Below, piece after piece: positions 5,608 through 56,804 of a stretch of DNA of 64,000 nucleotides (its first letter is position 1; every line of letters starts with the position of its first letter). The notes under the pieces are model-generated. The model did not search any database. It was not told the origin of the DNA and saw only the letters and a program-made list of their open reading frames with translations. The position numbers and the translations under genes were made by a program. This DNA comes from a virus: IMG/VR virus record IMGVR_UViG_3300045120_000051, positions 5,981 to 69,980 of that record, one strand, 5' to 3'.

Positions 5608-6134
5608 GCCTCTTGGACCTCATCGAGCAGGGCGATACAGAAGCGGTTGCCCCGCTCCTTGTGGTCACCATGTCGGGGGCCCCAATCGGCAAGGGCAGGC
5701 CCCGTTCCCGCATCGTTCGCCCCCGCAATGGCCCCCAATTCGTCAGTGTCTACACGGATGCCTCTACGAGGGCCTACGAGGCCCGCCTACGCGCTGCCGC
5801 GCTCCGGGCCATGCGAGGCCAGCCGCCGCTGGAAGGGCCACTGGCGGTCACCGTATGGGCTTACGTGGTCATTCCAGAGAGTTGGTCGCTCAAGAGGCAG
5901 AACGCCGTGGTGGGAGGCTATGCGCCCGGTCGTCCCGATCAGGACAATATCCATAAGCTGGTGCTCGATTCCTTCAATAGTTCCAAGAAAATGGGTCCCG
6001 GTGTCTGGCGTGACGACGCCCAAATCGTGGACGGCAGGACGATCAAGCTCTACGCCCGGCGCCGGCCTGGGCTCATCATCGAGGTCCGGCGTGCCGGCAC
6101 TCCGCCGACGCCATGGGCGGAGGATTATATATGA
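5604..6134 (+). CDS. rusA: RusA-family Holliday junction resolvase
   Basis: KGRPR, RPD.DN..K.VLD..N, G.W.DDAQIV motifs. Confidence 0.9.
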   Translation: MSLLDLIEQGDTEAVAPLLVVTMSGAPIGKGRPRSRIVRPRNGPQFVSVYTDASTRAYEARLRAAALRAMRGQPPLEGPLAVTVWAYVVIPESWSLKRQNAVVGGYAPGRPDQDNIHKLVLDSFNSSKKMGPGVWRDDAQIVDGRTIKLYARRRPGLIIEVRRAGTPPTPWAEDYI

Positions 6135-23463: not shown

Positions 23464-24471
23464 ATGGCTGACGACGAGGAAATCGCCGTAACAATCGAAC
23501 AGGAAACACCGGAAGCTGGTGCCGTCACGGTTGAAAAGACCGACGACAAGCAGGTAGCCGTTGATCCGGTAGCGGACCTCAAGGGTCAGTTCGAGACACT
23601 ACAGACACAGACTGCCAATGAACGGCAGCGCCGCGAGGCAGCGGAGCGCGCCCGTGCGTTTGCGGAGGAAAGGGCTACCCAGGCCGAGAGGCAGGCATCG
23701 CAAGCCCTTGGGCGGGCTGCTGAGAGCCAATACGACACCGTTTTATCGGGACTGGAGGCCGCGAAGGCAGAATCGGAGTCCGCAGAACGTGAGTATCAGG
23801 CGGCCTACGATGCCGGCGATGGCAAGGCGATGGCGGCGGCGCAGCGCAAGATGGCGCGAGCCGAAGCCAGGGCGGTTGAGTACGAAGGGGCCAAGAACAG
23901 CATCGAGGCCCGCGCCCGCCGATCCGATCAAGAGCAAACCGTAGAGAGGCGGACAGAGCCCACCGAGGCATCACAGGTTCAGCAACCATCGGACCCTGTT
24001 GAGGCGTATATCTCCCAGCGAACCGAGCCGACGCAAAAGTGGCTGCGCGAGCACAAGGAATGGATTTCGGACCCATCCAAGAATGCCAAGCTGACGGCTG
24101 CGCACTGGAATGCCGTTGGTGATGGTCTGGCGCCCGATACTCCGCAGTATTTCGAGCATGTGGAGAAGTTCATTGGGCTGCGGCAAGCGTCAAAATCTGG
24201 GAACGGGGCGGCGCGCAAGAGCGGCGGCCCTCCGGTTGCGCCAGTAGGGTCACCCAGCGGCGGCGGGGCGAATGGAGGGAGCAATACCGTGACATTGACG
24301 GCGGGCGAAGCGAGGGCGGCTACGGATGGCACGCTAACGTGGAACTATCCGGATCCGACCGGCAAAAACAGATGGAAGAAAGGGGACGCAATCGGCGTCC
24401 AGGAGTTCGCCCGGCGCAAGCAGGAAATGAAAAAGCAGGGGCTCTACGATAAGAGCCTGACCGAAGGATAA
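23464..24471 (+). CDS. Capsid scaffolding protein
   Basis: Acidic coiled coil; C-terminal VTLT..E...A...G...FAR.K; position in head module. Confidence 0.7.
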   Translation: MADDEEIAVTIEQETPEAGAVTVEKTDDKQVAVDPVADLKGQFETLQTQTANERQRREAAERARAFAEERATQAERQASQALGRAAESQYDTVLSGLEAAKAESESAEREYQAAYDAGDGKAMAAAQRKMARAEARAVEYEGAKNSIEARARRSDQEQTVERRTEPTEASQVQQPSDPVEAYISQRTEPTQKWLREHKEWISDPSKNAKLTAAHWNAVGDGLAPDTPQYFEHVEKFIGLRQASKSGNGAARKSGGPPVAPVGSPSGGGANGGSNTVTLTAGEARAATDGTLTWNYPDPTGKNRWKKGDAIGVQEFARRKQEMKKQGLYDKSLTEG

Positions 24472-24476
24472 TTGCC

Positions 24477-25136
24477 ATGATCGATGAACCAGATGGCTCT
24501 CCTGACGAGCCCATGATCCGCAAGCGTCCCGGCCGTCCACCCGGTTCAGCCAAGGCAGCGCCTGTGCCAAAGCGTGCCTATGCACGTCAGGCTACCCGGC
24601 AGGAACAGCCGCGTGACTTGGCCCGCGAGCCTGCGCGTGACGGTGTTGTGGTCCAAGGGCGCGACGGGGAAGTGCTATCGCGCAAAAACAAGGACGTTGG
24701 TGATCCGTTTTACGTCGATCCTCGCATAATTCCCAAGGGCTGGGATTATCAGTGGAATACCTACACAGTGCATGGGCAGATAGCTGTGGATGAGCAAGTC
24801 AATATGCACGCCAATGGTTGGCGTGCTGTCCCGGCGTCTCGTCATCCCGGCCTTTACGTTCCGGTAGGAGAACAGGGTGCGATCATCAAGAAGGGGCTTC
24901 GCCTTGAGGAGCGGCCGAAGGCGATGTCTGAAGAGGCTCGCCAGGAGGAGTACGCCAAGGCTTATGGGCGCATGCGTGATGCGACTGATTCACTCCGTCT
25001 GACATCCAAGCTGCCGCAGGGCATGGAAATCAGTAAGAAGTATCGCGGGACTGGTGGCGATGTGAGGATTAGCACCGACCGCTATAGTGATATTCCAGCC
25101 CCGTCGTACCAGCCGCCAGACGACAGTACGCCGTAG
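24477..25136 (+). CDS. Conserved head-module hypothetical protein
   Basis: IP.GWDYQW...GW..VPA..HP...I..GL.L.ERP motif; follows scaffold. Confidence 0.65.
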   Translation: MIDEPDGSPDEPMIRKRPGRPPGSAKAAPVPKRAYARQATRQEQPRDLAREPARDGVVVQGRDGEVLSRKNKDVGDPFYVDPRIIPKGWDYQWNTYTVHGQIAVDEQVNMHANGWRAVPASRHPGLYVPVGEQGAIIKKGLRLEERPKAMSEEARQEEYAKAYGRMRDATDSLRLTSKLPQGMEISKKYRGTGGDVRISTDRYSDIPAPSYQPPDDSTP

Positions 25137-25142
25137 GCCGTT

Positions 25143-26795
25143 GTGCCCAAACTCGTCATCAACATCATCACGCGCAACCGTCCCCACCTGATTGTGGAGA
25201 CGGTTGAGAATTTCTTGGCTCAGATGACGACCGCGGACTGCGGCCTCATGGTTTCTGTCGATGACGATGACGTAGCGACCATCAAAGCACTGGAGCCTTA
25301 CTGCGGGCGTCAACGGACCCACATTTCAATCCAGCCTCGCGAGGACGCTATTGGCGACAAGTGGTCCCGTAGTTTCCGTTCGTTTCCCGATGCCGGCGCG
25401 CACATGCTGGCCGCGGACTATGCGATCTGCAAGACCAAGGGCTTTGACAAGAAGATCATCGATGCAGTGGAGTTGCTGCCGGACAACATCGGGGTGATCG
25501 GCGGCAAGTTCTGCAATGCATCGTTTTCGGCGTTCCAGGTGGTGACGCGGGGGCTGGCGAGGCGCATGGGCTTCGTCTACCCGCCCTACTTTCCCTACTG
25601 GTTTGTTGATCATTGGGTTGACGATATCGCCCGGATGATCGGACGGCTGGTCTATGTGGACGTTGACATTGACGCCGTGTCTCGCAAGCCGCCGACGCAG
25701 GAAATGCGGGACTTGGTGTTTTGGTCTACGTTCTTTGATCTGTGCCGGGGGCGGCGGCACAAATGTGCTGAACGCATCCTTGATGATAGCGACACCAGGG
25801 TGTGGCTTAAGTCCATAATGGTCGGCAATTTCGAGATCACTGATGTCCGCTCCAAATGGATCAACGATTGCGTCCGTGCCAGTGCGGCTCATGTCGAGAA
25901 CGCCATTGGCGCTGGCCCTCCCGACGAACGCTATCTGCGCTCGCTGGACGCAGCCAAGGCCATGATCCCGGAACTTGTCCAGGAAATGAAGGATGCCGGC
26001 GAGGACGTGTCGGCATGGATACCGCGCATGACCACGAACGTATCGCCCATCCGCAAATCAACCGGACCTCAGATGAAAAAGATTTTGCTGTTTGTCCCAG
26101 CCTTTGGGCAGATGATGTCCTGCACCACGGTGTCAACCATTATCCAGTTGATGCAGGTTTTACCGTCCAAGGCCATCGCAGGAGGATTTGGGACGCTCTC
26201 CTACCCCGACATTGCCGAGATGAGGGACGCCGTGCTCTCCCGGTGGTACGACCACATGACGGACTACACGCATCTGCTATTTATCGATGCGGACATGGGC
26301 TTTGCCCCCGAATTGGTCCTGGACATGCTGTTGTTCGACCAGCCATTGGTCGGTGCGATCTACCGCAAGCGGATCGAGCCGCCGCAGTGGGCCGCCTCAG
26401 GGAGCGGAGGGCCTACGACAGCTAGGACGGGAGATTTTATTGAGGTCGATGGCCTCGGCATGGGTGTCTGCCTTATCCGCCGTGATGTGGTGACAACCAT
26501 GCTGGAAAAGATGCCAGAATTGTCTGACGACAAGATCGCCATGCTGTCGATCCGGGACCTCATGGACCCTGCGGCAACGCGGATTATTAGGGCATTTGAC
26601 CCGATTCAGGGTCCGTCTGGTCGTGTGTCGGAAGACCTCTCTTTCTGCCAGCGGTGGCGTGAGTGTGGTGGAACCGTTTGGGGTGCGATTGGGCATTCTG
26701 TTTCGCATGTTGGAATGTATGATTTTTGCGGGAGGTACGCGGATGTGGCAGATAAAGCCCCGATAGTGCCGCCCGCGTTGCAAGCTGCTGAGTGA
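25143..26795 (+). CDS. Double GT-A/GT2-like glycosyltransferase
   Basis: Domain 1: TRNRP, SVDDDD, WFVD.W. Domain 2: THLLFIDADM, G.G.CLIRRDV, SEDLSFC.RW..CGG. Confidence 0.85.
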   Translation: MPKLVINIITRNRPHLIVETVENFLAQMTTADCGLMVSVDDDDVATIKALEPYCGRQRTHISIQPREDAIGDKWSRSFRSFPDAGAHMLAADYAICKTKGFDKKIIDAVELLPDNIGVIGGKFCNASFSAFQVVTRGLARRMGFVYPPYFPYWFVDHWVDDIARMIGRLVYVDVDIDAVSRKPPTQEMRDLVFWSTFFDLCRGRRHKCAERILDDSDTRVWLKSIMVGNFEITDVRSKWINDCVRASAAHVENAIGAGPPDERYLRSLDAAKAMIPELVQEMKDAGEDVSAWIPRMTTNVSPIRKSTGPQMKKILLFVPAFGQMMSCTTVSTIIQLMQVLPSKAIAGGFGTLSYPDIAEMRDAVLSRWYDHMTDYTHLLFIDADMGFAPELVLDMLLFDQPLVGAIYRKRIEPPQWAASGSGGPTTARTGDFIEVDGLGMGVCLIRRDVVTTMLEKMPELSDDKIAMLSIRDLMDPAATRIIRAFDPIQGPSGRVSEDLSFCQRWRECGGTVWGAIGHSVSHVGMYDFCGRYADVADKAPIVPPALQAAE

Positions 26796-26815
26796 TGGTT
26801 TAGGATGTGATTTGC

Positions 26816-26875
26816 GGTAAGGCTCGCCTAGGTGGGGTCCGGCACGGTTGGGCGAGGCATGGTATGGCGAGGTTG
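26816..26875 (+). repeat. GGY-NN pentamer array 1 (12 units)
   Basis: ggtaa ggctc gccta ggtgg ggtcc ggcac ggttg ggcga ggcat ggtat ggcga ggttg. Confidence 0.9.
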
Positions 26876-26910
26876 CTTGACGTGACCTTGAATTGATGAT
26901 TGGCTATCCA

Positions 26911-27004
26911 AATCGCGGCGATCAACGCGATTCGAAACGCGGCACCATCGACAACTTCCCCGTCGTCCGGTGTCGCTGAAAAGTGACCCCTGATTCCGCG
27001 TTTC
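26911..27004 (+). ncRNA. Candidate structured RNA leader
   Basis: AATCGCG/CGCGATT hairpin; GAAACGCGG/CCGCGTTTC stem enclosing smaller hairpins. Confidence 0.4.
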
Positions 27005-27025
27005 CGGGCTTGATCGGCCGGGCGC

Positions 27026-27125
27026 GGGGGAGACCGTCTGCGGCGCGGCTTGGCATGTCATGGTGCGTGTCCGGTCGGGTAAGATTAGGCTTGGTATGGC
27101 AGGGTCTCCTTTCATCAAAAGGAGA
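27026..27125 (+). promoter_or_regulatory. GGY-NN array 2 (about 12 units) enclosed by a stem that competes with an RBS-sequestering hairpin
   Basis: GGAGACC (27029-35) pairs with GGTCTCC (27103-09); TCTCCTTT (27105-12) alternatively pairs with AAAGGAGA (27118-25). Confidence 0.7.
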
Positions 27126-27135
27126 GGACGATTAA

Positions 27136-27750
27136 ATGACTAAGACCTCAGCTAAGGTTGTTCATATCAGTGAACCGACTGATGGTGGCAATGAGACAAT
27201 CGAACACTCAGAGCCTTACGCCGTCGCCGTAACTGTCGAAGGCTCCGCCGATTTTCTGTTTCATCGATGGAATCCGGAAGCCGTCGATGAGAAGGCCAAA
27301 GCCGCGAAGAACTCGAAGGGCAAAAAAACCGATAACATCGAGAGTTACGTTTATCGGCTTGACAACGGTGAACTCGCCATCCCCGGCGAATATATGCGGG
27401 GTAGTATCATCAATGCCGCCAAGTTCCGGCAAGACCCACGTTCACCGCGCAAGTCTGCGGCCGATTTGTTCAAGGCTGCAATCGTCGTCACGACGCCGCT
27501 TGCAGCGCTTGGCGTGAGTGATTGGGACTATCTCGACAAGCGCCGCGCGATGGTCCAACGGCAGGGCATCAACCGCGTGCGGCCGGCAATGCGCGCCGGC
27601 TGGACGTGCGAGTTCCATCTGTTGGTGATGCTGCCGGAATACGTTGATCGCGGCGCGTTGCGCGAGACAATCGAAAGCGCGGGGCGGCTCATCGGCCTTG
27701 GTGATTTCCGGCCGACATTTGGCCGGTTTGGCATCGTCAACTTCGAATAA
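27136..27750 (+). CDS. Stand-alone RAMP/Cas7-like RNA-binding protein
   Basis: N-terminal strand VTVEG.A.FL.H, IPG..MRGSI..AA, C-terminal Gly-rich loop AG..IGLGDFRP.FGRF; strong RBS; flanked by pentamer arrays. Confidence 0.8.
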   Translation: MTKTSAKVVHISEPTDGGNETIEHSEPYAVAVTVEGSADFLFHRWNPEAVDEKAKAAKNSKGKKTDNIESYVYRLDNGELAIPGEYMRGSIINAAKFRQDPRSPRKSAADLFKAAIVVTTPLAALGVSDWDYLDKRRAMVQRQGINRVRPAMRAGWTCEFHLLVMLPEYVDRGALRETIESAGRLIGLGDFRPTFGRFGIVNFE

Positions 27751-27758
27751 GGAGATCT

Positions 27759-28006
27759 GGTCGGGTGAGGCTGGGTGTGGCGAGGTCGGCCCTGGTCCGG
27801 CGTGGCATGGTGAGGCTAGGTTTGGTGAGGACGGGCGCGGCATGGCGCGGCAGGGCTAGGTCTGGCAAGGCTAGGTATGGTGAGGTACGGGCCGAAGGGC
27901 CGGTGTGGTACGGTCGGGTTCGGTGAGGCAAGGCTGGCTTCGGTTCGGTAGGCTCTGGTATGCTATGGTAAGGTGGGGCGAGATGGGGCTTGCTGAGGTG
28001 AGGATT
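27759..28006 (+). ncRNA. GGY-NN pentamer arrays 3a (26 units, 27759-27888) and 3b (21 units, 27902-28006), putative guide RNAs
   Basis: Strict 5-nt phase within each block; blocks separated by GGCC-GAAG-GGCC mini-hairpin; intergenic. Confidence 0.75.
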
Positions 28007-28011
28007 TAATC

Positions 28012-29397
28012 TTGAGGACTGTTTTATCACATGGTGTGTTTGATCCAATGCACATTGGGCATGTATTGCATTTGATCGAGGCACGGGCACAAGGCGACAG
28101 GCTTGTCGTAAGCGTTACAGCCGATGAGTTTGTTGCTAAAGGTCCAGATAGGCCCATCTTTAAGGGGGCTGAACGCGCGCAGGCATTGCGGGCTTTAAGT
28201 TGCGTTGATGACGTGATCATTAGTGAGTCTTATGATGCTGTCGATGTAATCAACAAGGTTAGGCCAAATCTTTTTGTTAAGGGTGTCGATTATAAAGATG
28301 TAAACGATGCTGCATTACAGCGAGAAATAGCCGCTGTGGAGGCTCACGGAGGTCGTTTCTATACCACGCATTCTGATAGATGGTCATCGTCCCGCATTGT
28401 AAACGGCGCGAGATTTGATGATGAAGCGATGGCTTATCTTGAGGGCGCCAGGGCGCGAGGGTTTTCTGACCGGATTTTGGCGGCATTCGAACGTGCAGAC
28501 AAGCTGAAAATCGCGTTCGTGGGAGAAACGATCATTGACCGCTACCACTACGTTTCCCCGCTGGGGAAGCCGGTGAAGGAATTCTGCCTTGCCACGGTCG
28601 AGGCCAAGGAATCGGAGGAGTTCCTAGGCGGCGTCATTGCGGCCAGCAAACACGCGGAATGGCCCCATGTGAACGTGGTGACCAGCGGTCAGTTCATCCG
28701 CAAGACGCGGTATGTGGACGTGGCGTTTAACCGGAAGCTGTTCGAGGTCTATTCTGAGCGCGAGATTGAGTTGAACGAAAAGCAGAGGACGGCGTTCCGC
28801 AGTGATCTAGTCGATGCTTTGAAGGCGGTTGATGCTGTTGTCGTGCTGGATTTTGGGCATGGACTCCTAACATCCGAAGAGCGTAGCTTCATTAGATCGG
28901 CTGGGTTCAGGAAGACAAAAAAGAAACAAAAGCCCATATTTACTGCCATTAACTCTCAATCCAACACTGCCAATTTTGGGTTTAATCCAGTTACGTTGCA
29001 TCCTGGCGCAAATTTTGTCTGTGTTGACGATCCAGAGGCGAGGCTTGCTACCGGGATGCAGAATGATCCAATGGGCGACGTTCTAACGTGCCTATCCGAC
29101 AAGATGTGCTGTTACCAGTTCATTGTCACGCACGGTCGGAATGGATGTACCTCCTTCACGAGATACAAGAATCCAGCCGTTCACATCCCCGCCTTCGCCA
29201 CCAACGGCATTGACACCATGGGGGCGGGAGACGCATTTCTGGCAGTGACAGCGCCGCTTGTTGCCGCGGGGCTTGGGCTGGAAGAGGCAGGCTTTGTGGG
29301 CAACGTGGCCGGCGCCATCAAGGTTGGCATCCTCGGCCATCGTCGCCATGTTGGTCGGCAGGAACTTATCCAGAGCGTGGAGGCGCTGCTTAAATGA
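28012..29397 (+). CDS. RfaE/HldE-like bifunctional nucleotidyltransferase + PfkB sugar kinase
   Basis: GVFD.MHIGH, V.VTAD..V.KG..RP, KG.DY, SSS.I; GETIID.Y, DFGHG, DTMGAGDAF. Confidence 0.9.
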   Translation: MRTVLSHGVFDPMHIGHVLHLIEARAQGDRLVVSVTADEFVAKGPDRPIFKGAERAQALRALSCVDDVIISESYDAVDVINKVRPNLFVKGVDYKDVNDAALQREIAAVEAHGGRFYTTHSDRWSSSRIVNGARFDDEAMAYLEGARARGFSDRILAAFERADKLKIAFVGETIIDRYHYVSPLGKPVKEFCLATVEAKESEEFLGGVIAASKHAEWPHVNVVTSGQFIRKTRYVDVAFNRKLFEVYSEREIELNEKQRTAFRSDLVDALKAVDAVVVLDFGHGLLTSEERSFIRSAGFRKTKKKQKPIFTAINSQSNTANFGFNPVTLHPGANFVCVDDPEARLATGMQNDPMGDVLTCLSDKMCCYQFIVTHGRNGCTSFTRYKNPAVHIPAFATNGIDTMGAGDAFLAVTAPLVAAGLGLEEAGFVGNVAGAIKVGILGHRRHVGRQELIQSVEALLK

Positions 29398-29579
29398 CGG
29401 ACAAGGATTGGGAAATACCGAGCCCTCGCAAGTACCTTGCTATAAAATACTCAACCCCGCCTGGAACTTGCAAGTGTGGTGAGTGCCAATTGGTGCCGCC
29501 CGAAATGCTGATGGTATGGGATGCTGAAATCCAGAGCCTCAAAGATCAGGTTAAACACCTGAGAATTATAAAACCATGA
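29394..29579 (+). CDS. Hypothetical protein
   Basis: ATGA-coupled on both sides. Confidence 0.55.
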   Translation: MTDKDWEIPSPRKYLAIKYSTPPGTCKCGECQLVPPEMLMVWDAEIQSLKDQVKHLRIIKP

Positions 29580-29794
29580 CCGACCTCCCCCCTCTCCACG
29601 TCATCGTCAAGTTCGGGAAGGATATCCCGCTATCCATCCAAGGGCCGGCGTTGCTGGAGATGGAGCGGCATCTGCGCAAGCTGGCGGCGGAGACGGTGTG
29701 CGGGCCCCTGTGGATTGAAGTCTTTAAGGAGGCCAAGGGGGATGATAGTAAGTTGCGCAGCGCCATGACCGAAAAGCAAAGATCAAAACTATGA
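29576..29794 (+). CDS. Hypothetical protein
   Basis: ATGA-coupled on both sides. Confidence 0.6.
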   Translation: MTDLPPLHVIVKFGKDIPLSIQGPALLEMERHLRKLAAETVCGPLWIEVFKEAKGDDSKLRSAMTEKQRSKL

Positions 29795-30954
29795 CCTCGC
29801 CCATGCCCGATTTTGTCGATCACGTTCTCGGCGTTGCTCCCGATTCCCCGTCCGTTCACAATCTTCAATTGGATGGGACAAAAATAGCTTGGTATCGAGA
29901 TCGCGTTGAGGCATGGGCTCGGGGCGAGCGCATCGCTCCGATCACGATGGACGTGGCCTGGACTCGCAAGTGCCAAGCAGCGTGCGGATTCTGCTATGCG
30001 AGTCTACAGTCCAGTGAAGGCGGCATCGATGTAACCCGGCAGGAAGCATTCGACTTCTTGGAAGACGCCGCAGCCATCGGCGTCAAGGGCGTCAGCCTCA
30101 TAAGCGACGGGGAAAGCACTGGCGTCCCCTACTATGCCGAATCGATCAAGTACGGTGCGTCCCTTGGTCTGCAAATGGGGATCAGTTCAAACGGGGTGAC
30201 GCTCACCCGAGATGTTCTGGAGGACATCCTGCCGTCGCTGAGTTACCTCCGGTACAATTTCAGCGGTGGCAAACGCAAGCGTTACGCTGAGATCATGGGG
30301 TTGAAGCAGATTTGGTTTGACCGCGTGGTGTCAAGCGTCAAGACCTCGATGGAGATCAAACGGCGCGACAACCTCCCTTGCACGGTCAACATGCAATTTG
30401 TCGTCCGTCCTGTAGACGGGGACCAGATTGTACCGTTTGCTAAACTCGCCGCCGAAATCCGCCCTGATTACGGAATCCTGAAGCACTGTTCCGATAGCTC
30501 GACCAATGACCTCGGTGTGGATTACCGAAAGTACAGCGAATTATTCCCGTTGTTTCAGGAGGCCGAAGGCTACTCGGACAAGGATTTTCGCATTGCGGTC
30601 AAGTGGTCGCGTATCCAGGACGAGGGCAAGCGAGATTACCAACGATGCTATGGGCCTCCGTTCATCCTGCAAATGTCCGGCAATGGCTTGATTGCTCCTT
30701 GCGGGCAGAAGTTCAATTCCAAGTACCAGAAATTCCACATGGGCCGGTTGTCGGAGATGCGTTTCCGGGACATCTTCAAGAGTGACCGCTACTGGGACAT
30801 CATCAACTATCTCGCCAGCGAGGACTTCGACGCGCAGAAGGATTGCGGCGAGAACTGCTTGCAGACAAACAGCAACTCGTGGCTGAATCGCTATGTGAAC
30901 GGGCAAGCGCAGTTTGCGACAACGCCCCCACCCCCGCAGATCGGTTTTCTGTGA
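29791..30954 (+). CDS. Radical SAM protein with SPASM/twitch-like domain
   Basis: CQAACGFC; C.GP......GNG...PC; C..NC. Confidence 0.9.
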   Translation: MTSPMPDFVDHVLGVAPDSPSVHNLQLDGTKIAWYRDRVEAWARGERIAPITMDVAWTRKCQAACGFCYASLQSSEGGIDVTRQEAFDFLEDAAAIGVKGVSLISDGESTGVPYYAESIKYGASLGLQMGISSNGVTLTRDVLEDILPSLSYLRYNFSGGKRKRYAEIMGLKQIWFDRVVSSVKTSMEIKRRDNLPCTVNMQFVVRPVDGDQIVPFAKLAAEIRPDYGILKHCSDSSTNDLGVDYRKYSELFPLFQEAEGYSDKDFRIAVKWSRIQDEGKRDYQRCYGPPFILQMSGNGLIAPCGQKFNSKYQKFHMGRLSEMRFRDIFKSDRYWDIINYLASEDFDAQKDCGENCLQTNSNSWLNRYVNGQAQFATTPPPPQIGFL

Positions 30955-31721
30955 CATTCGACATCGCCGCTGCCAAGGAACGGTGCCGGCGCTATCGGCG
31001 GCGCATTCTGGACATCTCGCAGCAGGTTTCGGCGCTTCACATTGCCAGCGCCTATTCATGCACCGAGATTGTGGATTGCATCTACCACGGTCTGATGCGA
31101 CCGCAGGAGACGTTCATCTTGTCCAAGGGACACGCCGGCATCATGCAGTATGTGGTACTGGAAGATCTCCGGGTGCTCAACAGAAGTGACCTTGAGGCTT
31201 ATTGCACCCGAAATGGGGTGCTTGGAACGCATCCCGACTACGGCAATCCGGGGATTGCTGCCTCGACAGGCTCCCTCGGTCACGGCCTTGGGATGGCGGT
31301 GGGAATGGCTCTGGCCAACCGTTCGGAGCGGGTTTACGTGGTTCTCAGCGATGGGGAGTTGCAGGAGGGATCGACGTGGGAAGCCATCTTGCAGGCGTCG
31401 TCGCTACGGTTGAACAATCTCACGGTCTTTGTGGACAACAACGACTTCCAGAGTTTGCAGCGAACGTCGGTCACTCACCCATCGTTTTATCCATTGGCTG
31501 CTAAATTTGTGGCCTTCGATTGGGGTGTGGTTGAAGTTGAGGACGGCCACGATAGTTGGGCCTTATACAAGGAATCTAAGCACGGGCATCTTTTCAGGCC
31601 CTTTGTGGTGATTGCGAAAACGACCAAGGGGAAGGGCGTCAGCTTCATGGAGAACATTCCCATCTGGCACTACAGGTCGCCCAATGTGGAGGAATACGCC
31701 AAGGCGATAGCCGAGCTATGA
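30951..31721 (+). CDS. Transketolase N-terminal (TPP-binding) subunit
   Basis: LSKGHA, TGSLGHGL..AVG, SDGELQEG.TWEA, T.KGKGVSFME..WH; GTG start overlaps upstream TGA. Confidence 0.92.
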   Translation: MTFDIAAAKERCRRYRRRILDISQQVSALHIASAYSCTEIVDCIYHGLMRPQETFILSKGHAGIMQYVVLEDLRVLNRSDLEAYCTRNGVLGTHPDYGNPGIAASTGSLGHGLGMAVGMALANRSERVYVVLSDGELQEGSTWEAILQASSLRLNNLTVFVDNNDFQSLQRTSVTHPSFYPLAAKFVAFDWGVVEVEDGHDSWALYKESKHGHLFRPFVVIAKTTKGKGVSFMENIPIWHYRSPNVEEYAKAIAEL

Positions 31722-32653
31722 GGAATGTATTCGCTGAGACGCTTTTCGAGGAAGCTGTTGGTAATCCTAAGATTTTCGTCGTGGCTGCGGATATTTCTCC
31801 GTCTGGAAGCATGGCTAAGTTTGGCCTGGAATACCCTGATCGCGTCATCAATGTTGGGGTGGCAGAGCAATCCATGATCGGGATCTGCGCCGGTCTGGCC
31901 ATCAAGGGGTGCCAGCCGTTCGCCTATACGATAGCGACGTTCAGTCTTTACCGGCCGTTCGAGATGGTGCGAGATGATCTTTGTTATCAGAACTTGCCAG
32001 TGACCGTCGTGGGGATGGGGGCGGGTGCGATCTACTCGACGCTGGGGGGAACACATCAGGCGATTGAGGACATCGCGATTGCGAGCGCGTTGCCCAACAT
32101 GCAGATCATAGCTCCGTGCGATCCGCTGGAATGTGCCGAGGCCGTGCGCTGGTGTGCCCGGCAAAGGAGTGGGCCGGTTTACCTGCGGCTTGGGAAGTCT
32201 GGGGAGTCCACCCTAACCAAGGATGCGGCGTCGTGGCAATTTGGCAAGATCAGGAAAATCCGTGCTGGTAGCGATATCTGCATTCTGACTTACGGGGTAA
32301 TCGCGGCAATGGCTGTCAATGTGGCGGATAGTCTAACGGGCTTGGGGTACTCTGTCGCCGTTGTGTCGGTTCACACGATGAAACCGTTGGATAGGCGTGG
32401 TATCGCGTCAATTTTGACCAACTACCAGCATGTGGTTGTCATCGAGGAACACGTTCCGCAGGGAGGTCTTGCGGCTCAAACCAAGCAGATTGCTTGGGAA
32501 TGCAAGGCGCGGTGCCGGCTGAACACGTTCACCTTGCAGGATGAATTCATCCATAACTATGGCACTCGTGACGAATTTCTCGCCGCGCATGGGCTTTCGG
32601 TTGAATGGATATCGGCGGCGGTTGCTCTTGACGCGCGTGCATTTTCGGCCTAA
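31718..32653 (+). CDS. Transketolase C-terminal (pyrimidine-binding) subunit
   Basis: NVGVAEQSMIG..AGLA, G.THQAIED, GPVYLRL, KPLD, EEH...GGL. Confidence 0.92.
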   Translation: MRNVFAETLFEEAVGNPKIFVVAADISPSGSMAKFGLEYPDRVINVGVAEQSMIGICAGLAIKGCQPFAYTIATFSLYRPFEMVRDDLCYQNLPVTVVGMGAGAIYSTLGGTHQAIEDIAIASALPNMQIIAPCDPLECAEAVRWCARQRSGPVYLRLGKSGESTLTKDAASWQFGKIRKIRAGSDICILTYGVIAAMAVNVADSLTGLGYSVAVVSVHTMKPLDRRGIASILTNYQHVVVIEEHVPQGGLAAQTKQIAWECKARCRLNTFTLQDEFIHNYGTRDEFLAAHGLSVEWISAAVALDARAFSA

Positions 32654-32824
32654 TGGACATTATCAGTTCCCATCACAAGCGCTGATGGTCGAGCTAAACG
32701 TCAGGTCTAGCGGTGCCCGCAGACCTTGACATATCACCGCAGCGAGCCGCCGCGGTCCACCTCTCGGCAATCCAGGCAACGCCTGCCCGGTCCAGCCCTC
32801 CGCAACCCGGAGCACGACCCGGCT

Positions 32825-33403
32825 ATGGCCAATTTACAATCGGCGTTCGGCTTCAGACATATCGGGTTTCTGTCCGGCTACGCTCCGGACTATCAGCAGC
32901 AAACCCGCCTCATCCAATCGACCAACACGACGAAGATATTCAATGGCGATCCGGTCGTTAAATCCGGCGCCACGAATTACATCGTGCAGGGGTCCAGCAC
33001 CACGATCCTGGAGGGCATCTTTGTCGGATGCACCTATCAGGCGACGGGTGGCTCGACTACGTGGTCGCCGTATTGGGTGGGCGCGGCAGCGGCCGATGCT
33101 ATCGGATACCTGATCAACGCGCCGGGTGCGCTGTTCCTGGCCGCCGCGCTCAATACCGCCATCGTGACCGCGAACATCGGCGCCAACATCGGCTATAACA
33201 TTGGCACCGGATCGACGGTCGGCGGTGGGTTCTCTGGCGCCACGCTGGACCAGAGCACGATCAACACCACCAACACCCTGCCGTTCCAGATTGTCAGCCT
33301 TTACCAGGGCATCGGCAACGGCTCAGATCCTCTCACGGCCTACAACTGGGCTGTCGTTACCTTCAATAACCAGAGGTTCAGAACTCTGACCGGCGTCGCG
33401 TAA
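32825..33403 (+). CDS. Putative capsid decoration/minor head protein
   Basis: MAN...FGFR, IFNGDPV, GIFVGC.Y; immediately before capsid gene. Confidence 0.7.
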   Translation: MANLQSAFGFRHIGFLSGYAPDYQQQTRLIQSTNTTKIFNGDPVVKSGATNYIVQGSSTTILEGIFVGCTYQATGGSTTWSPYWVGAAAADAIGYLINAPGALFLAAALNTAIVTANIGANIGYNIGTGSTVGGGFSGATLDQSTINTTNTLPFQIVSLYQGIGNGSDPLTAYNWAVVTFNNQRFRTLTGVA

Positions 33404-33442
33404 GCGGCTGGCCGTCCCGTCGCACTAGCTTAGGGGCCATCA

Positions 33443-34357
33443 ATGCCCGTCGCCCTCGCAAATATCCGCAGCGAATTGTTGCCCGGCCTGTTCGACGTGC
33501 GTGGGTCATACGACATGATCCCGCGACAGTGGGACAAGGTGTTCACCACCCACAAGTCGGAAATGGCCGTCGAGCGTTCGACGCAGATGGCCTTTGTGGC
33601 GTTGCCGTTCCTGAAAGATGAAGGGGCCGCCACGCAATTCGATAACAATGCTGGCGAACGCTTCACCTGGGCCTTCACGCACATCGAAGTTGCCTTGGGG
33701 TACGCGATCACGAGAAAAGCGATTGACGATAACCTCTACAAGGCACAGTTCAATCCGACAAACCTGAAGCTCCAGGAAGCCTTTGCGCAGTTCAAGGAAA
33801 TCCAGTCCGCGAACATCCTGAACCTCGGGACTACCTACAACTCAGCACAGATCGGAGATGGCGTTGCGCTGTTCTCGACGGCGCATCCCTACGACGGCGG
33901 CACATGGGCCAACACGTCGTCCGTGCCGAAGTCGCTGAACGAATCCTCGATGCTGGCCAACATGACGAACGTCCGCACGCAGTTCGTCAACGAACGCGGC
34001 CTGCGTATTTTGTCCAGGGCGCGTCGGCTTGTCGTGCCGCCCAATCTCGAACAAGTCGCAATCCGCCTCACCAAGACGGAGTTGCGCCCTGGCACCGCAG
34101 ACAACGACGTGAACGCCATCCTCACCCTCTCCGGTGGGCTGCCCGAAGGCTTCATCGTCATGGACTTCCTGACCTCGAACTTCGCGTGGTTCTTGACCAC
34201 GAATATCGAGGGATTGATTCACATGCTCCGCATCCCGTATGAGAGCGATATGTGGGTCGATAATGTCACGGACAACTTGCTTGTAAAGGCTTACGAACGC
34301 TACAGTTTTGGCGATAACGATCCTCGGGCCGCGTGGGGCGAGTTTCCCACGAGTTGA
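33443..34357 (+). CDS. Major capsid protein (Mu gpT-like, HK97 fold)
   Basis: L.PGL, K.EG....D, ALGYAIT..AI.DNLY, GDGVALFSTAHP, LVVPP.L...A.RL, ERYSFG..D.R. Confidence 0.9.
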   Translation: MPVALANIRSELLPGLFDVRGSYDMIPRQWDKVFTTHKSEMAVERSTQMAFVALPFLKDEGAATQFDNNAGERFTWAFTHIEVALGYAITRKAIDDNLYKAQFNPTNLKLQEAFAQFKEIQSANILNLGTTYNSAQIGDGVALFSTAHPYDGGTWANTSSVPKSLNESSMLANMTNVRTQFVNERGLRILSRARRLVVPPNLEQVAIRLTKTELRPGTADNDVNAILTLSGGLPEGFIVMDFLTSNFAWFLTTNIEGLIHMLRIPYESDMWVDNVTDNLLVKAYERYSFGDNDPRAAWGEFPTS

Positions 34358-53426: not shown

Positions 53427-56400
53427 GTGGGAACCAAGAATCAGACGACCACTACCCAGCAAACCCCCAATCCCACTGCGGGTGCTGCTTACAACAGCCT
53501 CCTCCAACGCGCCTCTGGCGTAGCGGATACGCCCTATCAATCCTATAGCGGAGAACTGGTTGCCCCCGTCAATGCGCAGCAGAACCTTGGCATCGGGAAC
53601 ATCAACCAAGGTGCTGGTTTTGCCCAGCCGTACATTCAGCAGGCGGCTCAGTACGCCACCAACGCCGCGCAGCCACTGACTGCGGAAGATATTGAACGCT
53701 ATTCGGACCCGTACACACAGCAGGTTATCAACGCCACGGAGGGGCAATTTGCCCACGACAATGCCGTGCAGCAGCAGGGCGTGCTCGGCAATGCCGCGGC
53801 GCAGGGTGCCTTGGGTGGCAACCGGGTGGGCGTGGCGCAGGCCCTGACGGCGGAGGGGCAACAGCGGGCGCAGGCTCCGGTCATCGCGGGATTACGCAGC
53901 CAAGGCTACAATACCGGCCTGAATACCGCGATGAACCAGCAGCAGCAGCAGGCGCAGGCTGCGTATTCCCTCGGGAATTTGGGCGTTGCCGGCCAGAACG
54001 CCTATCTGACCGGCGCCAATGCGCAGATTGGGGCGGGGACGCTTCAGCAGGGCACGCAACAGGCATTGAACGCGGCCAATTATGGCCAGTTTACGCAGGC
54101 GCAGGCTTTTCCGTATCAACAGGCCCAATGGCTGGCCGGCATCGATACGGGCGTGGGTTCCCAGATGGGGGGCACGTCTCAGACCACGAAGCCGGGGCCA
54201 AACCTCTTCAGCCAGATCGCTGGTCTGGGGATGGCGGGCGTGGGAGCCTTCACTGGAAATCCAGGGGCGGTCACTGGCGGATTGAACACTCTCTTTGGTG
54301 GAGGCAATAGCGCAGGCAACTACGGTGGATCGCCGGCAACCAATCCAAATCTCAATCCTGCGTCATTTGGGAATCTACAGAACCCCTATAGCAACCCCTA
54401 CGTCGCCCGTGGTGGTCGCATAGAAGGCTTCGACAGCGGCGGCGCTGTAGTGCCATACGGTGGGGTAGGGATGCCTTATGCGGGTGCCGGTCCATCCTGG
54501 ATGCCTCAGGCCCAAATAACGCATGGGCGGGGCTTGCCGGGCGTTGCAGGGGGCGATGACACGCCTTCCTCCCCCGGTGTGGCCAAAATCATGTCGGATG
54601 CCACGATGCTGGCCCGGAAGTTCATGAGCCAGCCAGGGGGTGAGGGTGCTCGGTACGGTGGCGTTGTGGCCCCGCCATCCGATGGAAGCATTATGGTTCC
54701 TCGTGGGTATGACGACGGTGGAGGCGTCCCTTTGCCACGGCCCGATCCAAGAGGGCCGCCTATCATGATCGGTGGGGTTGACCAACGGCCATCGTCTGGT
54801 GCTCCGGAATATGGGGCTAGTGATCATTTGAAGGCCGCATTACGGGCAGTATTCGAAGGTGGAAAGTATCGAGAAAGCGCGACCTCTCGCGGGGAAAGGG
54901 ATGATTCTGGTCTTTATGATCGGCGGCGCGGATACGAGGACGGCGGGACGCCGACCATGGCCGGATTTGGTTCGGGTTCGATGGTGCCGCAGGATTTCAA
55001 TTTATTCGACCCGAATCCGACCCCTGCCTATGCAAACGGTTTCCCGCCGGAAGATCGTCCGCCAAGCCAGTGGGACAGTGGGAAGCTCCGGGAGGTACCC
55101 TTCGATCCTGCCAGTTTTGCCCCTGGCACGTTCGGTATGGCAACCCCAGATGACCAGCCGCCCGACCCATATATCGGTGGCCGCGATGAGGCTTACCGTG
55201 CCGCCATGGCGGCGGCTGGCGATGATCCATATGGTGCCATCGAAGCACGGGCGGGCGTTGGCGACTCTTCCCAGGAGGCCCCCGCGGCCGGCGTCGGCAA
55301 TACTGGCGGCTGGTCATCTGGCATTGGGCCTGCGCTCATGTCGGCTGGTTTCGGGATGATGGCATCGCAGTCGCCGTTCATCGGGACGGCCATTGGCGAG
55401 GGTGGGTTGGCTGGCCTCAAGACCTACACCGAGGGTCAACAGCGCGAGGTGGCGAACCGCAGGGCCGAAGCCACGATGGCACGGCAGGCTGAGCAGACGA
55501 ACATCCAGCAAAAGAGCCTCGGTTTGCGGGTGAATGAACTGAAGCAACGGGCCCTACAGGCGCAGGAGGCCCTAAAGGCGCAGACACAGCGTCAGCAGGA
55601 AGCACTGAAGTCTCAGAAAGAGCGTCAGCAGGAGGCCATAAAGGCGCAGCAGGAGCGGCATGACGCCGATCTTGCAGAGCGCGAACGCCTGCATAGTAAT
55701 CCAATAAAGATTGGAGAGAATCCTCGCACGGGCGCTGCCATCATGGGTGTGCGTGACCCGAAAAATCCAAATCAATTTTTGGACCCCATTACACGCGAGC
55801 CCATAGACGCAGGCACCATGACCGGAGTGCAGCCATCTCGTCCATCGGGTACGCCGACTGCGCCTCCTGCGGCTGAACCTGTCAAGCCAGCCCCGCTGGA
55901 GGTTAAGGTTCCTGAATCGAGGGTCAAAACAGCATTCGGAGACGAGGAAGACGCAGCATCGGCGCTACGTGGCGTCCTAAATTCAGGTGGCACGCCTGAA
56001 GGCGTCAATCCAGACGTCCTTGATGATCCAATGTTGAGCGAGGGTGATCGCAACAAGGTCAAGGCAATCGGTGAAGGGCGCGCAGCGTTTCTGCCAATCA
56101 GCAGGGGCAACAAAGAAAACCAGTTCATCATGAAGAAGGCTTACGAGTACAATCCCAATTTGGATCAGACGATGTTTCCGCGTCGTCAGAGAACCGAGAA
56201 CTTTTATTCGGTCGGTACGCAAGGTGGGGGTGGCCAGCAAGTCATCGCTCTCAATAGATTTGCCGCCCACACAGGGTCGCTCTTGAAATTAGCCGAGAGC
56301 CTGGATGAAAGCCGGTTCCCAACTTGGAATGCTTTCCGCAATTTTGCTTCAAGACAGGGTGTTGGAGTTCTTTTCGGAGATAAGAAGGAAATGCAAGACG

Positions 56401-56804
56401 TTCTCGGAGCGTGGGACGTAAATGCGAAGGGAGTAGGCGATGAGGCTGCGAAGGTCTTCGCGGGGTCAAATCCTGCTCTTGCTGACCGCACAGTGTGGGA
56501 AAAGGTTCTGAAACCAGAGACGCCTCTTTCAACCATCAAAGCCAAACTACGGCAGGCTGTTGAGATGAGCGAGGGGGCGCTTCAAGCACTTGCTGCGGGT
56601 TACAACGAGGGCACGCGCAGCAATCATCAGCCACGCGAGTTTCTGACGCCGCACACACAAGAAATTTTTGAGGCAGTGAAGGCCAATCGTCCTATCGGAG
56701 ATGTTGTAAAACCGTCTGGCGGGGCCACGGCAACGGACAAGCCCAAGACTGTCATCCAGAATGGTCATAAGTACGAACTGCAACCAGACGGCTCTTATCG
56801 ATGA
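53427..56804 (+). CDS. DNA ejection/pilot internal virion protein
   Basis: Q/A/G-rich N-terminus (PYQ.Y.G..VA, Y..PY.QQVI.AT, GA.GG.R), multiple GG motifs, helical C-terminus. Confidence 0.75.
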   Translation: MGTKNQTTTTQQTPNPTAGAAYNSLLQRASGVADTPYQSYSGELVAPVNAQQNLGIGNINQGAGFAQPYIQQAAQYATNAAQPLTAEDIERYSDPYTQQVINATEGQFAHDNAVQQQGVLGNAAAQGALGGNRVGVAQALTAEGQQRAQAPVIAGLRSQGYNTGLNTAMNQQQQQAQAAYSLGNLGVAGQNAYLTGANAQIGAGTLQQGTQQALNAANYGQFTQAQAFPYQQAQWLAGIDTGVGSQMGGTSQTTKPGPNLFSQIAGLGMAGVGAFTGNPGAVTGGLNTLFGGGNSAGNYGGSPATNPNLNPASFGNLQNPYSNPYVARGGRIEGFDSGGAVVPYGGVGMPYAGAGPSWMPQAQITHGRGLPGVAGGDDTPSSPGVAKIMSDATMLARKFMSQPGGEGARYGGVVAPPSDGSIMVPRGYDDGGGVPLPRPDPRGPPIMIGGVDQRPSSGAPEYGASDHLKAALRAVFEGGKYRESATSRGERDDSGLYDRRRGYEDGGTPTMAGFGSGSMVPQDFNLFDPNPTPAYANGFPPEDRPPSQWDSGKLREVPFDPASFAPGTFGMATPDDQPPDPYIGGRDEAYRAAMAAAGDDPYGAIEARAGVGDSSQEAPAAGVGNTGGWSSGIGPALMSAGFGMMASQSPFIGTAIGEGGLAGLKTYTEGQQREVANRRAEATMARQAEQTNIQQKSLGLRVNELKQRALQAQEALKAQTQRQQEALKSQKERQQEAIKAQQERHDADLAERERLHSNPIKIGENPRTGAAIMGVRDPKNPNQFLDPITREPIDAGTMTGVQPSRPSGTPTAPPAAEPVKPAPLEVKVPESRVKTAFGDEEDAASALRGVLNSGGTPEGVNPDVLDDPMLSEGDRNKVKAIGEGRAAFLPISRGNKENQFIMKKAYEYNPNLDQTMFPRRQRTENFYSVGTQGGGGQQVIALNRFAAHTGSLLKLAESLDESRFPTWNAFRNFASRQGVGVLFGDKKEMQDVLGAWDVNAKGVGDEAAKVFAGSNPALADRTVWEKVLKPETPLSTIKAKLRQAVEMSEGALQALAAGYNEGTRSNHQPREFLTPHTQEIFEAVKANRPIGDVVKPSGGATATDKPKTVIQNGHKYELQPDGSYR

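What the first reader, a model, noticed from the sequence alone, without database searches (positions are those of the whole stretch)
27902..28422. Array 3b decodes as a gapped NN-x guide against a diverged allele of the adjacent RfaE-like gene
NN string of 27902-28001: GT AC CG TC GA AA TG TC TC AG CT AT AT AA GG GA GG TT GA GA. Codons at 28363-28422: ACC ACG CAT TCT GAT AGA TGG TCA TCG TCC CGC ATT GTA AAC GGC GCG AGA TTT GAT GAT. Comparing NN with codon positions 1-2 gives 12 full, 6 half and 2 non-matches (30/40 nt), ungapped. Read as codons the guide spells VTRS[DE][KN][WC]SS[SR]L[IM][IM][NK]G[DE]G[FL][DE][DE] versus the resident TTHSDRWSSSRIVNGARFDD. Several mismatches are conservative (K/R, I/V, AGy vs TCC Ser), as expected if the real target is a homolog in a related phage. 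The skipped base is the wobble position, so synonymous third-position escape would be ineffective. Inference: the element acts like a homing/competition module that attacks the sister allele and spares its own.
Basis: partly seen in the sequence, partly recalled or inferred. Interest (0 to 1): 0.95.

Follow-up and report, generated by a model that had tools for sequence, protein, structure and literature searches.

The report
Phage VIPR guide aimed at sister allele
The repeat array is a guide RNA of a recently described phage weapon (VIPR) that reads DNA two bases in every three, and this guide fits a rival phage's copy of the neighbouring gene better than the phage's own copy.

Summary
The NN dinucleotides of the 20 GGYNN units at 27902-28001 match codon positions 1-2 of 28363-28422 at 30/40, in frame. 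The next best of about 128,000 window positions is 22. None of 2,000 permuted guides reached 30.

The mechanism is already published. ORF 27136-27750 is a homologue of the solved SUSP1 Vipr protein, and GGYNN arrays flank it on the same strand. This is a VIPR system (three 2026 bioRxiv preprints): Vipr polymerises on vrRNA, hides GGY, and pairs NN with dsDNA while skipping every third (wobble) base, which silences transcription of competing elements.

One related phage lacking vipr in the stretch held (L043) carries an allele scoring 33/40, above the published 80% cut-off; the resident allele scores 75%. The closest protein homologues allow up to 37/40, but their DNA could not be fetched. Only 1 of 24 DNA alleles beats the resident. 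"Homing" has no support: no nuclease gene was found.

In relatives, vrRNAs hit other phages' vipr genes, this window's included, while their own loci score lower.

Verdict: a new member of a known kind. Weapon and spared allele lie side by side.

The parts
26816..26875 (+). vrRNA-like array 1: 12 GGYNN units, upstream of vipr
   Evidence: Found by the periodicity scan and the unit caller. No target above the shuffled null in the window, the genome or 97 loci. An exact 10-unit pattern had 0 hits in viral contigs.
27042..27107 (+). vrRNA-like array 2: 5 + 7 GGYNN units with a 1-nt register shift, just upstream of the vipr ribosome-binding site
   Evidence: Unit caller on the genome and sequence display. 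Too short for a meaningful target search.
27136..27750 (+). vipr gene: 204-aa homologue of the SUSP1 Vipr RAMP protein
   Evidence: A profile of 24 homologues hits PDB 36pp_D 'SUSP1 Vipr protein' at E 4.4e-11 over positions 27-195. The single sequence gives E 3.8e-6 and aligns the G-loop G-D-[W/F]-R-P-x-F-G-R-F and the thumb R-P. It matches phrog_4652 of unknown function. No Pfam or PADLOC family matched.
27759..27888 (+). vrRNA-like array 3a: 26 GGYNN units, target unknown
   Evidence: No match above the nulls in the window, the genome or the loci. Three exact 10-unit patterns had 0 hits in viral contigs.
27886..27905 (+). Small GC hairpin between arrays 3a and 3b, where the register changes; a possible boundary or tail of vrRNA 3a
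   Evidence: Fold -11.5 kcal/mol, z -1.5; 15 of 200 shuffles fold as well, so it is not significant alone.
27902..28001 (+). vrRNA array 3b: 20 GGYNN units, the guide in question. The last GA unit(s) may belong to a conserved ...GGYGA-GG(A/T) ending seen on arrays 1, 3a and 3b and in relatives.
   Evidence: NN string confirmed. Scores: 30/40 on the resident gene, and 33/40 on the L043 allele with 28/32 over the first 16 units. The shared ending was read by eye.
28000..28014 (+). GAGGA Shine-Dalgarno sequence and TTG start of the RfaE-like gene, overlapping the short U-rich stretch after array 3b
   Evidence: Sequence. Relatives' arrays end in similar GGAT + T-rich stretches (by eye).
28012..29397 (+). 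RfaE-like bifunctional gene: N-terminal cytidylyltransferase-like domain and C-terminal PfkB kinase domain
   Evidence: Pfam PF01467 at 1.3e-16 and PF00294 at 1.5e-16. 2,687 homologues at E<=1e-5.
28363..28422 (+). Near-self site: codons 118-137 (TTHSDRWSSSRIVNGARFDD), matching guide 3b at 30/40 with the skipped base at the wobble position
27252..27281 (-). Site inside this phage's own vipr (peptide DFLFHRWNPEA) matched by vrRNAs of relatives
   Evidence: The L010 array at 4905 scores 18/20 and the L002 array at 2652 scores 17/20. The skip base is the wobble in 10 of 10 units. Their own loci score 13/20 and 14/20.
27696..27725 (-). Site inside vipr (G-loop, GLGDFRPTFGR) matched by a relative's vrRNA
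   Evidence: The L020 array at 2998 scores 18/20 here and 20/20 on L017-L019. The skip base is the wobble in 10 of 10 units.

Best explanation
The window holds a VIPR (Viral Interference Programmable Repeat) cassette of about 1.2 kb at 26796-28011. It sits between a glycosyltransferase-like gene and an RfaE-like gene of a 70-kb phage with direct terminal repeats. The cassette holds one vipr gene (27136-27750) flanked by four GGYNN arrays.

By the published mechanism, Vipr protomers polymerise one per pentamer on the transcribed array. They bury each GGY and present each NN. The filament pairs those NN with dsDNA while skipping every third base, forming an R-loop triplex that blocks transcription.

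Array 3b is such a guide. Its NN string is the sense-strand reading of codon positions 1-2 of a conserved motif of the cytidylyltransferase domain of RfaE-like genes (V-T-R-S-D/E-K-W-S-S...I-I-N-G-E).

Inferred: its working targets are the alleles of sister phages that lack VIPR. These phages share a syntenic module, and their capsid protein is 88-92% identical. The alleles score 82.5% at DNA level and up to 92.5% allowed by the peptides. Binding there would silence the rival's RfaE-like gene and probably the genes downstream on the same strand. The resident allele lies 11 bases after the array and matches at only 75%, under the published 80% cut-off, so it is probably spared.

Shown here: the anatomy, the homology to Vipr, the statistics of the match, and the better match in a sister allele. 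Inferred, not shown: transcription and processing of the array, binding, repression, and sparing of self.
For: Vipr homology:
- PDB 36pp_D 'SUSP1 Vipr protein' is hit at E 4.4e-11 by the profile and 3.8e-6 by the single sequence.
- The SUSP1 residues named in 10.64898/2026.04.26.720927 align to conserved residues: D177/W178/R179 to D190/F191/R192, and thumb R138 to R149.

Arrays:
- The only arrays of 6 or more GGYNN units in the genome lie on the vipr strand, flanking vipr.
- 36 of 38 related vipr loci carry same-strand arrays and none carries one on the other strand.

The code:
- 30/40 in frame on the resident gene. 0 of 2,000 permuted guides and 0 of 100 Markov genomes reach it.

Better non-self target:
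- L043 scores 33/40, and 28/32 over units 1-16.
- Peptide bounds are 37/40 for P0002, P0003 and P0020. Across 24 DNA alleles the actual score was the peptide maximum minus 2.6 +/- 1.3.
- A 30-letter loose end from a related allele in run X2 reads GERLDEEVVR and fits units 15-20 at 10/12, the same as the resident (read by eye).

Sister phages lack VIPR:
- 0 of 29 records with the RfaE-like gene encode a Vipr homologue; 11 of them are at least 90% complete.
- The positive control gave 5 of 5.
- Gene order is shared and the capsid protein is 88-92% identical.

Same self/non-self logic in this clade:
- Six vrRNA segments of relatives hit other phages' vipr at 85-100% of NN positions.
- Their own loci score 65-80%.
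- The published work reports the same pattern (10.64898/2026.10.15.759431, section 8).
Against: - Only 1 of 24 placed DNA alleles exceeds the resident, which would rank second. The guide is therefore about as close to self as to most of the family.
- The best candidates (P0002, P0003, P0020) were scored only as peptides; their minimum possible scores are 26-28.
- Exact searches for guide sub-patterns found nothing in viral, metagenome or genome contigs.
- The self match of 30 lies above the scrambled-guide ceiling of 27, so weak self-binding is not excluded. I found no quantitative mismatch tolerance in the sections and term searches I read of the three preprints.
- At 20 and 26 units the arrays are longer than the 9-16 reported for SUSP1 and P. 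fulva.
- No conserved pseudoknot tail or vap gene was found.
- There are no RNA data.
- The N-terminal domain as a whole is diverged (62% to P0002). The target stretch (60%) is not specially diverged, so there is no local escape signature.
Confidence: 0.7

Rival explanations
1. Autoregulation. The resident RfaE-like gene is itself the working target. A partly matched guide placed directly upstream lets the Vipr filament dampen or time the phage's own sugar-nucleotide module.
For: The array ends 11 bases before the gene it matches. The self score of 30/40 is above every permuted-guide score, whose maximum is 27. The resident allele ranks second among the alleles with DNA in hand. The preprints I read give no mismatch-tolerance curve.
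Against: Mismatches fall in 8 of 20 units, spread along the guide. A sister allele fits better, and family peptides allow much better fits. The published surveys found no self hits at >=80% and treat lower self scores as avoidance of autoimmunity. No other array here or in 38 relatives' 10-kb loci shows a strong self match: the best is 27/40 among millions of tests.
Confidence: 0.1
2. Relic or by-product of guide origin. The guide was made from, or against, an ancestral local allele and now has no effective target. The match records only shared ancestry of guide and gene.
For: No perfect or near-perfect target was found in three public collections by exact sub-pattern. The best DNA target is only 82.5%. 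How vrRNAs gain new NN content is not described in the parts of the preprints I read. No similar guide exists among 52 arrays of relatives.
Against: GGY conformity of array 3b is high: 15 of 20 units are perfect GGY and the rest have 2 of 3. This argues for maintained function. The NN positions fit the family consensus at its most conserved codons, as published for working guides. The collections searched are incomplete, and the closest homologues come from sources whose DNA I could not reach.
Confidence: 0.12
3. Not a guide at all. The array is a G-rich 5' leader, such as a protein-binding attenuator of TRAP type or a G-quadruplex tract, and the match to the coding sequence is fortuitous.
For: The array overlaps the ribosome-binding site of the downstream gene. 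The 5-nt periodicity recalls the triplet-plus-spacer sites of TRAP (recalled, no call).
Against: Chance is excluded: 0 of 2,000 permutations reach the score. A Vipr homologue is adjacent. The same arrays in relatives hit vipr genes in wobble phase.
Confidence: 0.03

Closest known systems
Type II VIPR of Escherichia phage SUSP1 and the Pseudomonas fulva prophage (bioRxiv 10.64898/2026.04.26.720920 and 10.64898/2026.04.26.720927)
   Same: - A small Vipr RAMP protein.
- GGYNN arrays on both sides of vipr on the same strand.
- NN read against dsDNA with one skipped base that falls on the codon wobble.
- Targets in coding sequences of competing phages.
- Self matches under 80%.
   Different: - Sequence similarity to SUSP1 Vipr is remote (E 3.8e-6 for the single sequence).
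- Arrays have 20-26 units here, and about 150 in relative L012, against the 9-16 reported.
- No vap gene is conserved beside vipr in 27 loci.
- No pseudoknot tail was recognised.
- The host is unknown and the phage is uncultivated.
- I could not assign a VIPR type, because figures and supplements were not available.
vipr- and vrRNA-targeting vrRNAs of SUSP1-family phages (bioRxiv 10.64898/2026.10.15.759431, section 8)
   Same: The guide is aimed at a relative's version of a gene the carrier also has. The self score is lower than the non-self score. In this clade too, relatives' guides hit conserved vipr motifs.
   Different: Here the targeted gene is not part of VIPR. It is the RfaE-like gene immediately downstream of the guide, so the guide and the spared allele are physically linked.
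Class 1 CRISPR Cas7 backbone (Cascade, Csm/Cmr)
   Same: A RAMP filament on a guide RNA. The thumb breaks the guide-target duplex at a fixed period. This comparison is drawn in the preprints.
   Different: - The period is 5 nt on the guide against 3 nt on the target, with only 2 paired bases per unit.
- There is no repeat-spacer array, cas genes or PAM.
- The scaffold bases GGY are fixed by sequence.
TRAP (trp RNA-binding attenuation protein) sites
   Same: Many triplets spaced by 2-3 nt in a leader RNA, each bound by one protein subunit (recalled, not tested).
   Different: TRAP spacers carry no target information and TRAP is unrelated to RAMPs. Here the spacers encode a DNA address.

Membership tests
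VIPR system | A Vipr protein (RAMP homologue of about 20 kDa) is encoded in the locus | tested here: met
   The 204-aa ORF hits PDB 36pp_D 'SUSP1 Vipr protein' at E 4.4e-11 (profile A1) and 3.8e-6 (single sequence).
VIPR system | The residues that hold GGY in SUSP1 Vipr are conserved: G-loop D177, W178, R179 and thumb R138 | tested here: met
   They align to D190, F191 (aromatic) and R192, and to R149-P150. R149, P150 and R192 are invariant and D190 is >=90% conserved in 24 homologues.
VIPR system | RAMP fold: RRM core, G-loop, thumb | not testable with these tools
VIPR system | Tandem GGYNN (YNNGG) repeats flank vipr on its strand, with GGY fixed and NN variable | tested here: met
   There are four arrays of 12, 5+7, 26 and 20 units, and no other array of 6 or more units in the genome. 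36 of 38 related loci carry same-strand arrays. Among 52 unique arrays none has an NN string resembling 3b.
VIPR system | A conserved structured 3' tail follows the repeats (a pseudoknot in the SUSP1 clade) | tested here: inconclusive
   Arrays end in GGYGA-GG plus a short GGAT/T-rich stretch in close relatives (by eye). Folds are not better than shuffles. There were no Rfam hits.
VIPR system | The 1-nt skip rule holds: NN matches the target with one skipped base, mostly the codon wobble | tested here: met
   Array 3b matches RfaE-like genes in frame. Relatives' guides match vipr with the skip at the wobble in 10 of 10 units, for three guides.
VIPR system | A natural non-self target at >=80% NN match and no self hit at >=80% (published criterion) | tested here: met
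   L043 scores 33/40 = 82.5% and self scores 30/40 = 75%. This rests on a single DNA-level target.
VIPR system | A vap accessory gene lies beside vipr ('typically' present) | tested here: not met
   No ORF family other than vipr overlaps recurs within 3.5 kb in more than 3 of 27 loci. The paper says 'typically', so this feature is not strictly defining.
VIPR system | vrRNA is expressed and bound by Vipr, and a matched promoter or gene is repressed | not testable with these tools
   No RNA run holds this sequence; the runs laid were DNA contigs.
CRISPR-Cas | A repeat-spacer array and cas genes | tested here: not met
   There are no direct repeats with spacers, only pentamer tracts. No Rfam CRISPR repeat family matched, and no PADLOC family matched Vipr.
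Hammerhead-interspersed VIPR arrays | Hammerhead ribozymes lie between vrRNAs | tested here: not met
   The Rfam scan of 26500-28300 at E<=1 gave 0 matches.

The most novel reading that the evidence does not exclude
The guide and the spared allele form a linked 'poison-antidote' haplotype. The VIPR cassette sits directly upstream of an RfaE-like gene whose N-terminal domain is a diverged mosaic patch. Against P0002 that domain is 62% identical, while the flanking segments are 94% and 100% identical. In mixed infections with near-identical sister phages the guide would silence the common allele. Any recombinant that took the cassette without the adjacent diverged domain would silence itself. 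VIPR would then drive the spread and divergence of the neighbouring gene segment, and could explain mosaic allele turnover in phage auxiliary modules.
Probability: 0.25. Interest if true: 0.6.

Novelty: new member of a known kind. Interest (0 to 1): 0.4.

Why it matters
The sequence alone led a reader to the non-contiguous NN-x code, and that code turns out to be the VIPR rule published in 2026. The case is a clean positive control for the scan.

For the VIPR field the locus adds four things:
- An environmental clade of vipr-only cassettes with long arrays and no recognisable vap gene.
- A web of guides aimed at each other's vipr genes.
- A natural guide whose best genomic match is the gene next door at 75%, while a sister allele passes the 80% cut-off.
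- A ready-made graded target series (self, L043-type, P0002-type, perfect). This series could be used to measure mismatch tolerance and self/non-self discrimination, for which I found no figures in the parts of the preprints I read.

Tried and rejected
**Searches and scans that found nothing**
- blastn of 26700-29500 against the phage collection found no match.
- tblastn of P0002 against the phage collection found only distant hits under 60% identity.
- Exact scans for the guide all gave 0 hits: units 1-9 in viral contigs, and a 26-base pattern (units 1-3, 5-9, 12-16) in metagenome contigs and genome contigs. That pattern should match L043, but I never ran it on viral contigs.

**Attempts to reach the closest homologues' DNA**
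- The search for related loci with the window's RfaE-like protein alone gave only 3 distant loci.
- With P0002 in genome contigs it gave none.
- In metagenome contigs it gave L100, which is 98% identical to P0002 residues 1-115. That contig ends three codons before the target site.
- Laying contigs of four runs on 27600-29500 gave no cover for 27984-28431. This is no evidence either way.
- The short pieces 80-95% alike on vipr, the arrays and the conserved RfaE-like parts in the same runs are only a weak hint that relatives share samples.

**Other arrays**
- Arrays 1 and 3a have no target above the shuffled nulls in the window, the genome or 97 loci.
- Four exact 10-unit patterns had 0 hits.
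- Array 2 is too short to test.
- Relatives' arrays had no hit of 28/40 or more in their own 10-kb loci.

**Structure and signals**
- Rfam gave no matches.
- Promoter and terminator scans were not above shuffles.
- Hairpin and tail folds were not significant.

**Ideas considered and dropped**
- Quintuplet or NNG-codon translation of the array. The match is to bases 1-2, not to amino acids.
- Collagen-like or pentapeptide coding. All frames contain stops.
- A local escape signature. The target stretch is no more diverged than its domain.
- My line 'DTR len 49' is an artefact of the loop and means nothing.
- The array scan of the 56 RfaE-like loci covered the + strand only. The six-frame Vipr search covers both strands for 29 of them.

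**Supplements**
- Supplements of the three preprints (lists of VIPR loci, types and targets) could not be seen. I therefore cannot say whether this clade or this record is already listed there.
Full report
**What is there**

The stretch 27759-28001 lies between ORF 27136-27750 and ORF 28012-29397. It is made almost entirely of GGYNN pentamers. A periodicity scan and a unit caller find only four such arrays in the whole 69,980-bp virus record. All four are on the + strand around ORF 27136-27750:
- 26816-26875, 12 units
- 27042-27107, 5+7 units
- 27759-27888, 26 units
- 27902-28001, 20 units

The record has direct terminal repeats, and the window is its bases 5981-69980.

**The observation**

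Against 28363-28422 it gives 12 full, 6 half and 2 non-matching units, which is 30/40. The NN fall on codon positions 1-2 of the ORF that starts at 28012.

Over both strands of the window the next best scores are 21 and 22. None of 1,000 base-permuted guides, 1,000 unit-permuted guides or 100 Markov genomes reaches 30; the maxima are 27, 27 and 26. The match is real. Arrays 1 and 3a have no comparable match.

**What it is**

A profile of the 204-aa ORF and 23 homologues hits one solved structure, 36pp 'SUSP1 Vipr protein', at E 4.4e-11. The single sequence gives 3.8e-6. That name led to three 2026 bioRxiv preprints on VIPR systems.

I read the following:
- 10.64898/2026.04.26.720920: outline, Results, Discussion, two Methods sections and term passages.
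- 10.64898/2026.04.26.720927: outline, the first part of Results and a term search.
- 10.64898/2026.10.15.759431: outline, sections 6, 8 and 17, and term passages.

They describe the following:
- A small RAMP protein, Vipr, binds one GGYNN unit per protomer, buries GGY and presents NN.
- The guide pairs with dsDNA under a '1-nt skip rule', and the skipped base usually falls on the codon wobble.
- There is no PAM, and either strand can be targeted.
- The outcome is transcriptional silencing of competing phages and satellites.
- Natural targets are called at >=80% NN match, and no self hit reached 80%.

The SUSP1 residues said to hold GGY (D177, W178, R179, R138) align to D190, F191, R192 and R149 here. 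These are invariant or nearly so in the clade. At least 36 of 38 related vipr loci from viral contigs carry same-strand arrays next to vipr. The locus is a member of that family.

**Is the real target a sister allele?**

The downstream gene is an RfaE-like fusion of a cytidylyltransferase domain and a PfkB kinase domain. It has 2,687 homologues at E<=1e-5.

In the closest ones the homologous peptide is VTR[ST]DKWSS[ST]RIINGERL.., against the resident TTHSDRWSSSRIVNGARFDD. The guide spells V-T-R-S-[DE]-[KN]-[WC]-S-S... The largest NN score these peptides allow is 37/40 for P0002, P0003 and P0020.

DNA was available for 56 loci from viral contigs. At the homologous site the 24 placeable alleles score 33, 29, 29, 27, 27 and downward to 15.
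- The best is L043 at 33/40 = 82.5%, with 28/32 over the first 16 units.
- Only this one allele beats the resident 30/40.
- In these 24 alleles the actual score is the peptide maximum minus 2.6 +/- 1.3. The 37-maximum homologues should therefore score about 34-35, but I could not fetch their DNA.
- A 30-letter loose end of a related allele in one run fits units 15-20 at 10/12, the same as the resident.

The RfaE-like loci share gene order with the window, and their capsid protein is 88-92% identical. None of their 29 records encodes a Vipr homologue; the positive control gave 5 of 5. The window's phage thus carries a 1.2-kb VIPR cassette, between the glycosyltransferase-like gene and the RfaE-like gene, that its sisters lack.

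**Context in the clade**

I scanned 52 unique arrays of relatives against all loci. The scan shows guides that hit other phages' vipr genes on the antisense strand, in wobble phase, at the most conserved motifs (FHRW and the G-loop). This window's vipr is among the targets: 18/20 at 27252-27281 and 18/20 at 27696-27725.

For the six guide segments tested, non-self scores are 85-100% and own-locus scores are 65-80%. This is the same self/non-self pattern the October 2026 preprint reports. It parallels 3b, at 82.5% on the sister allele and 75% on self.

**What is not supported or not known**

- 'Homing' has no basis. No nuclease or conserved accessory gene lies beside vipr in 27 loci.
- Sparing of the resident allele is inferred from a bioinformatic cut-off. 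The self score exceeds the scrambled ceiling, so weak self-binding or autoregulation remains possible.
- The arrays are longer than the 9-16 units published.
- The tails are short and unstructured by my folds.
- The VIPR type could not be assigned.
- The targets of arrays 1, 2 and 3a are unknown.
- The RfaE-like gene is a mosaic relative to P0002: 62%, 94%, 51% and 100% identity in four successive segments. The target stretch is no more diverged than its domain.

**Verdict**

The mechanism is already known (VIPR), and this locus is a new environmental member. The modest new point is that a guide lies directly beside the diverged, probably spared, copy of the gene it targets in sister phages.

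Noticed in passing
window 27252-27281 (-) and 27696-27725 (-); loci L010:4905, L002:2652, L020:2998: vrRNA arrays of related phages match this phage's own vipr gene at 17-18 of 20 NN positions, in wobble phase, at the FHRW strand and the G-loop. Their own loci score 13-16 of 20. This looks like a web of mutual vipr targeting in the clade.
   Followed up: yes
L029:2892-5576 (+) (same in L030); record G032: The Vipr domain is the C-terminal end of an open frame of about 895 aa with no stop. The N-terminal 700 aa match no Pfam family. It may be a Vipr fusion protein or a missed start.
   Followed up: partly
G030:C1:38463-39011 (record of L010): A second, weak vipr-like copy (E 1.4e-15) interrupted by one TAG lies in a phage that also has an intact vipr.
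   Followed up: no
L012:4225-4973 and 5631-6055; L006:5659-6300: Very long GGYNN tracts of about 150, 85 and 128 units flank vipr. This is far beyond the 9-16 units per vrRNA reported, so they are presumably multi-guide or staggered arrays.
   Followed up: no
window 28012-29397: The RfaE-like protein is a mosaic relative to its closest homologue P0002: residues 1-149 are 62% identical, 150-256 are 94%, 257-394 are 51% and 395-461 are 100%. The public gene call for this protein (P0001, 441 aa) is 20 residues shorter, which would cut off the N-terminal nucleotidyltransferase motif that homologues keep. The TTG at 28012 fits the homologues.
   Followed up: partly
window 23464-34357: A sugar-modification module lies just upstream of the major capsid gene. 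It holds a glycosyltransferase-like gene, the RfaE-like gene, a radical-SAM/SPASM gene and a split transketolase-like pair. It is syntenic but variable among sister phages.
   Followed up: partly
window 55562-55657: A 33-nt tandem repeat, 2.9 copies at 75% match, lies inside the long ORF 53427-56804.
   Followed up: no
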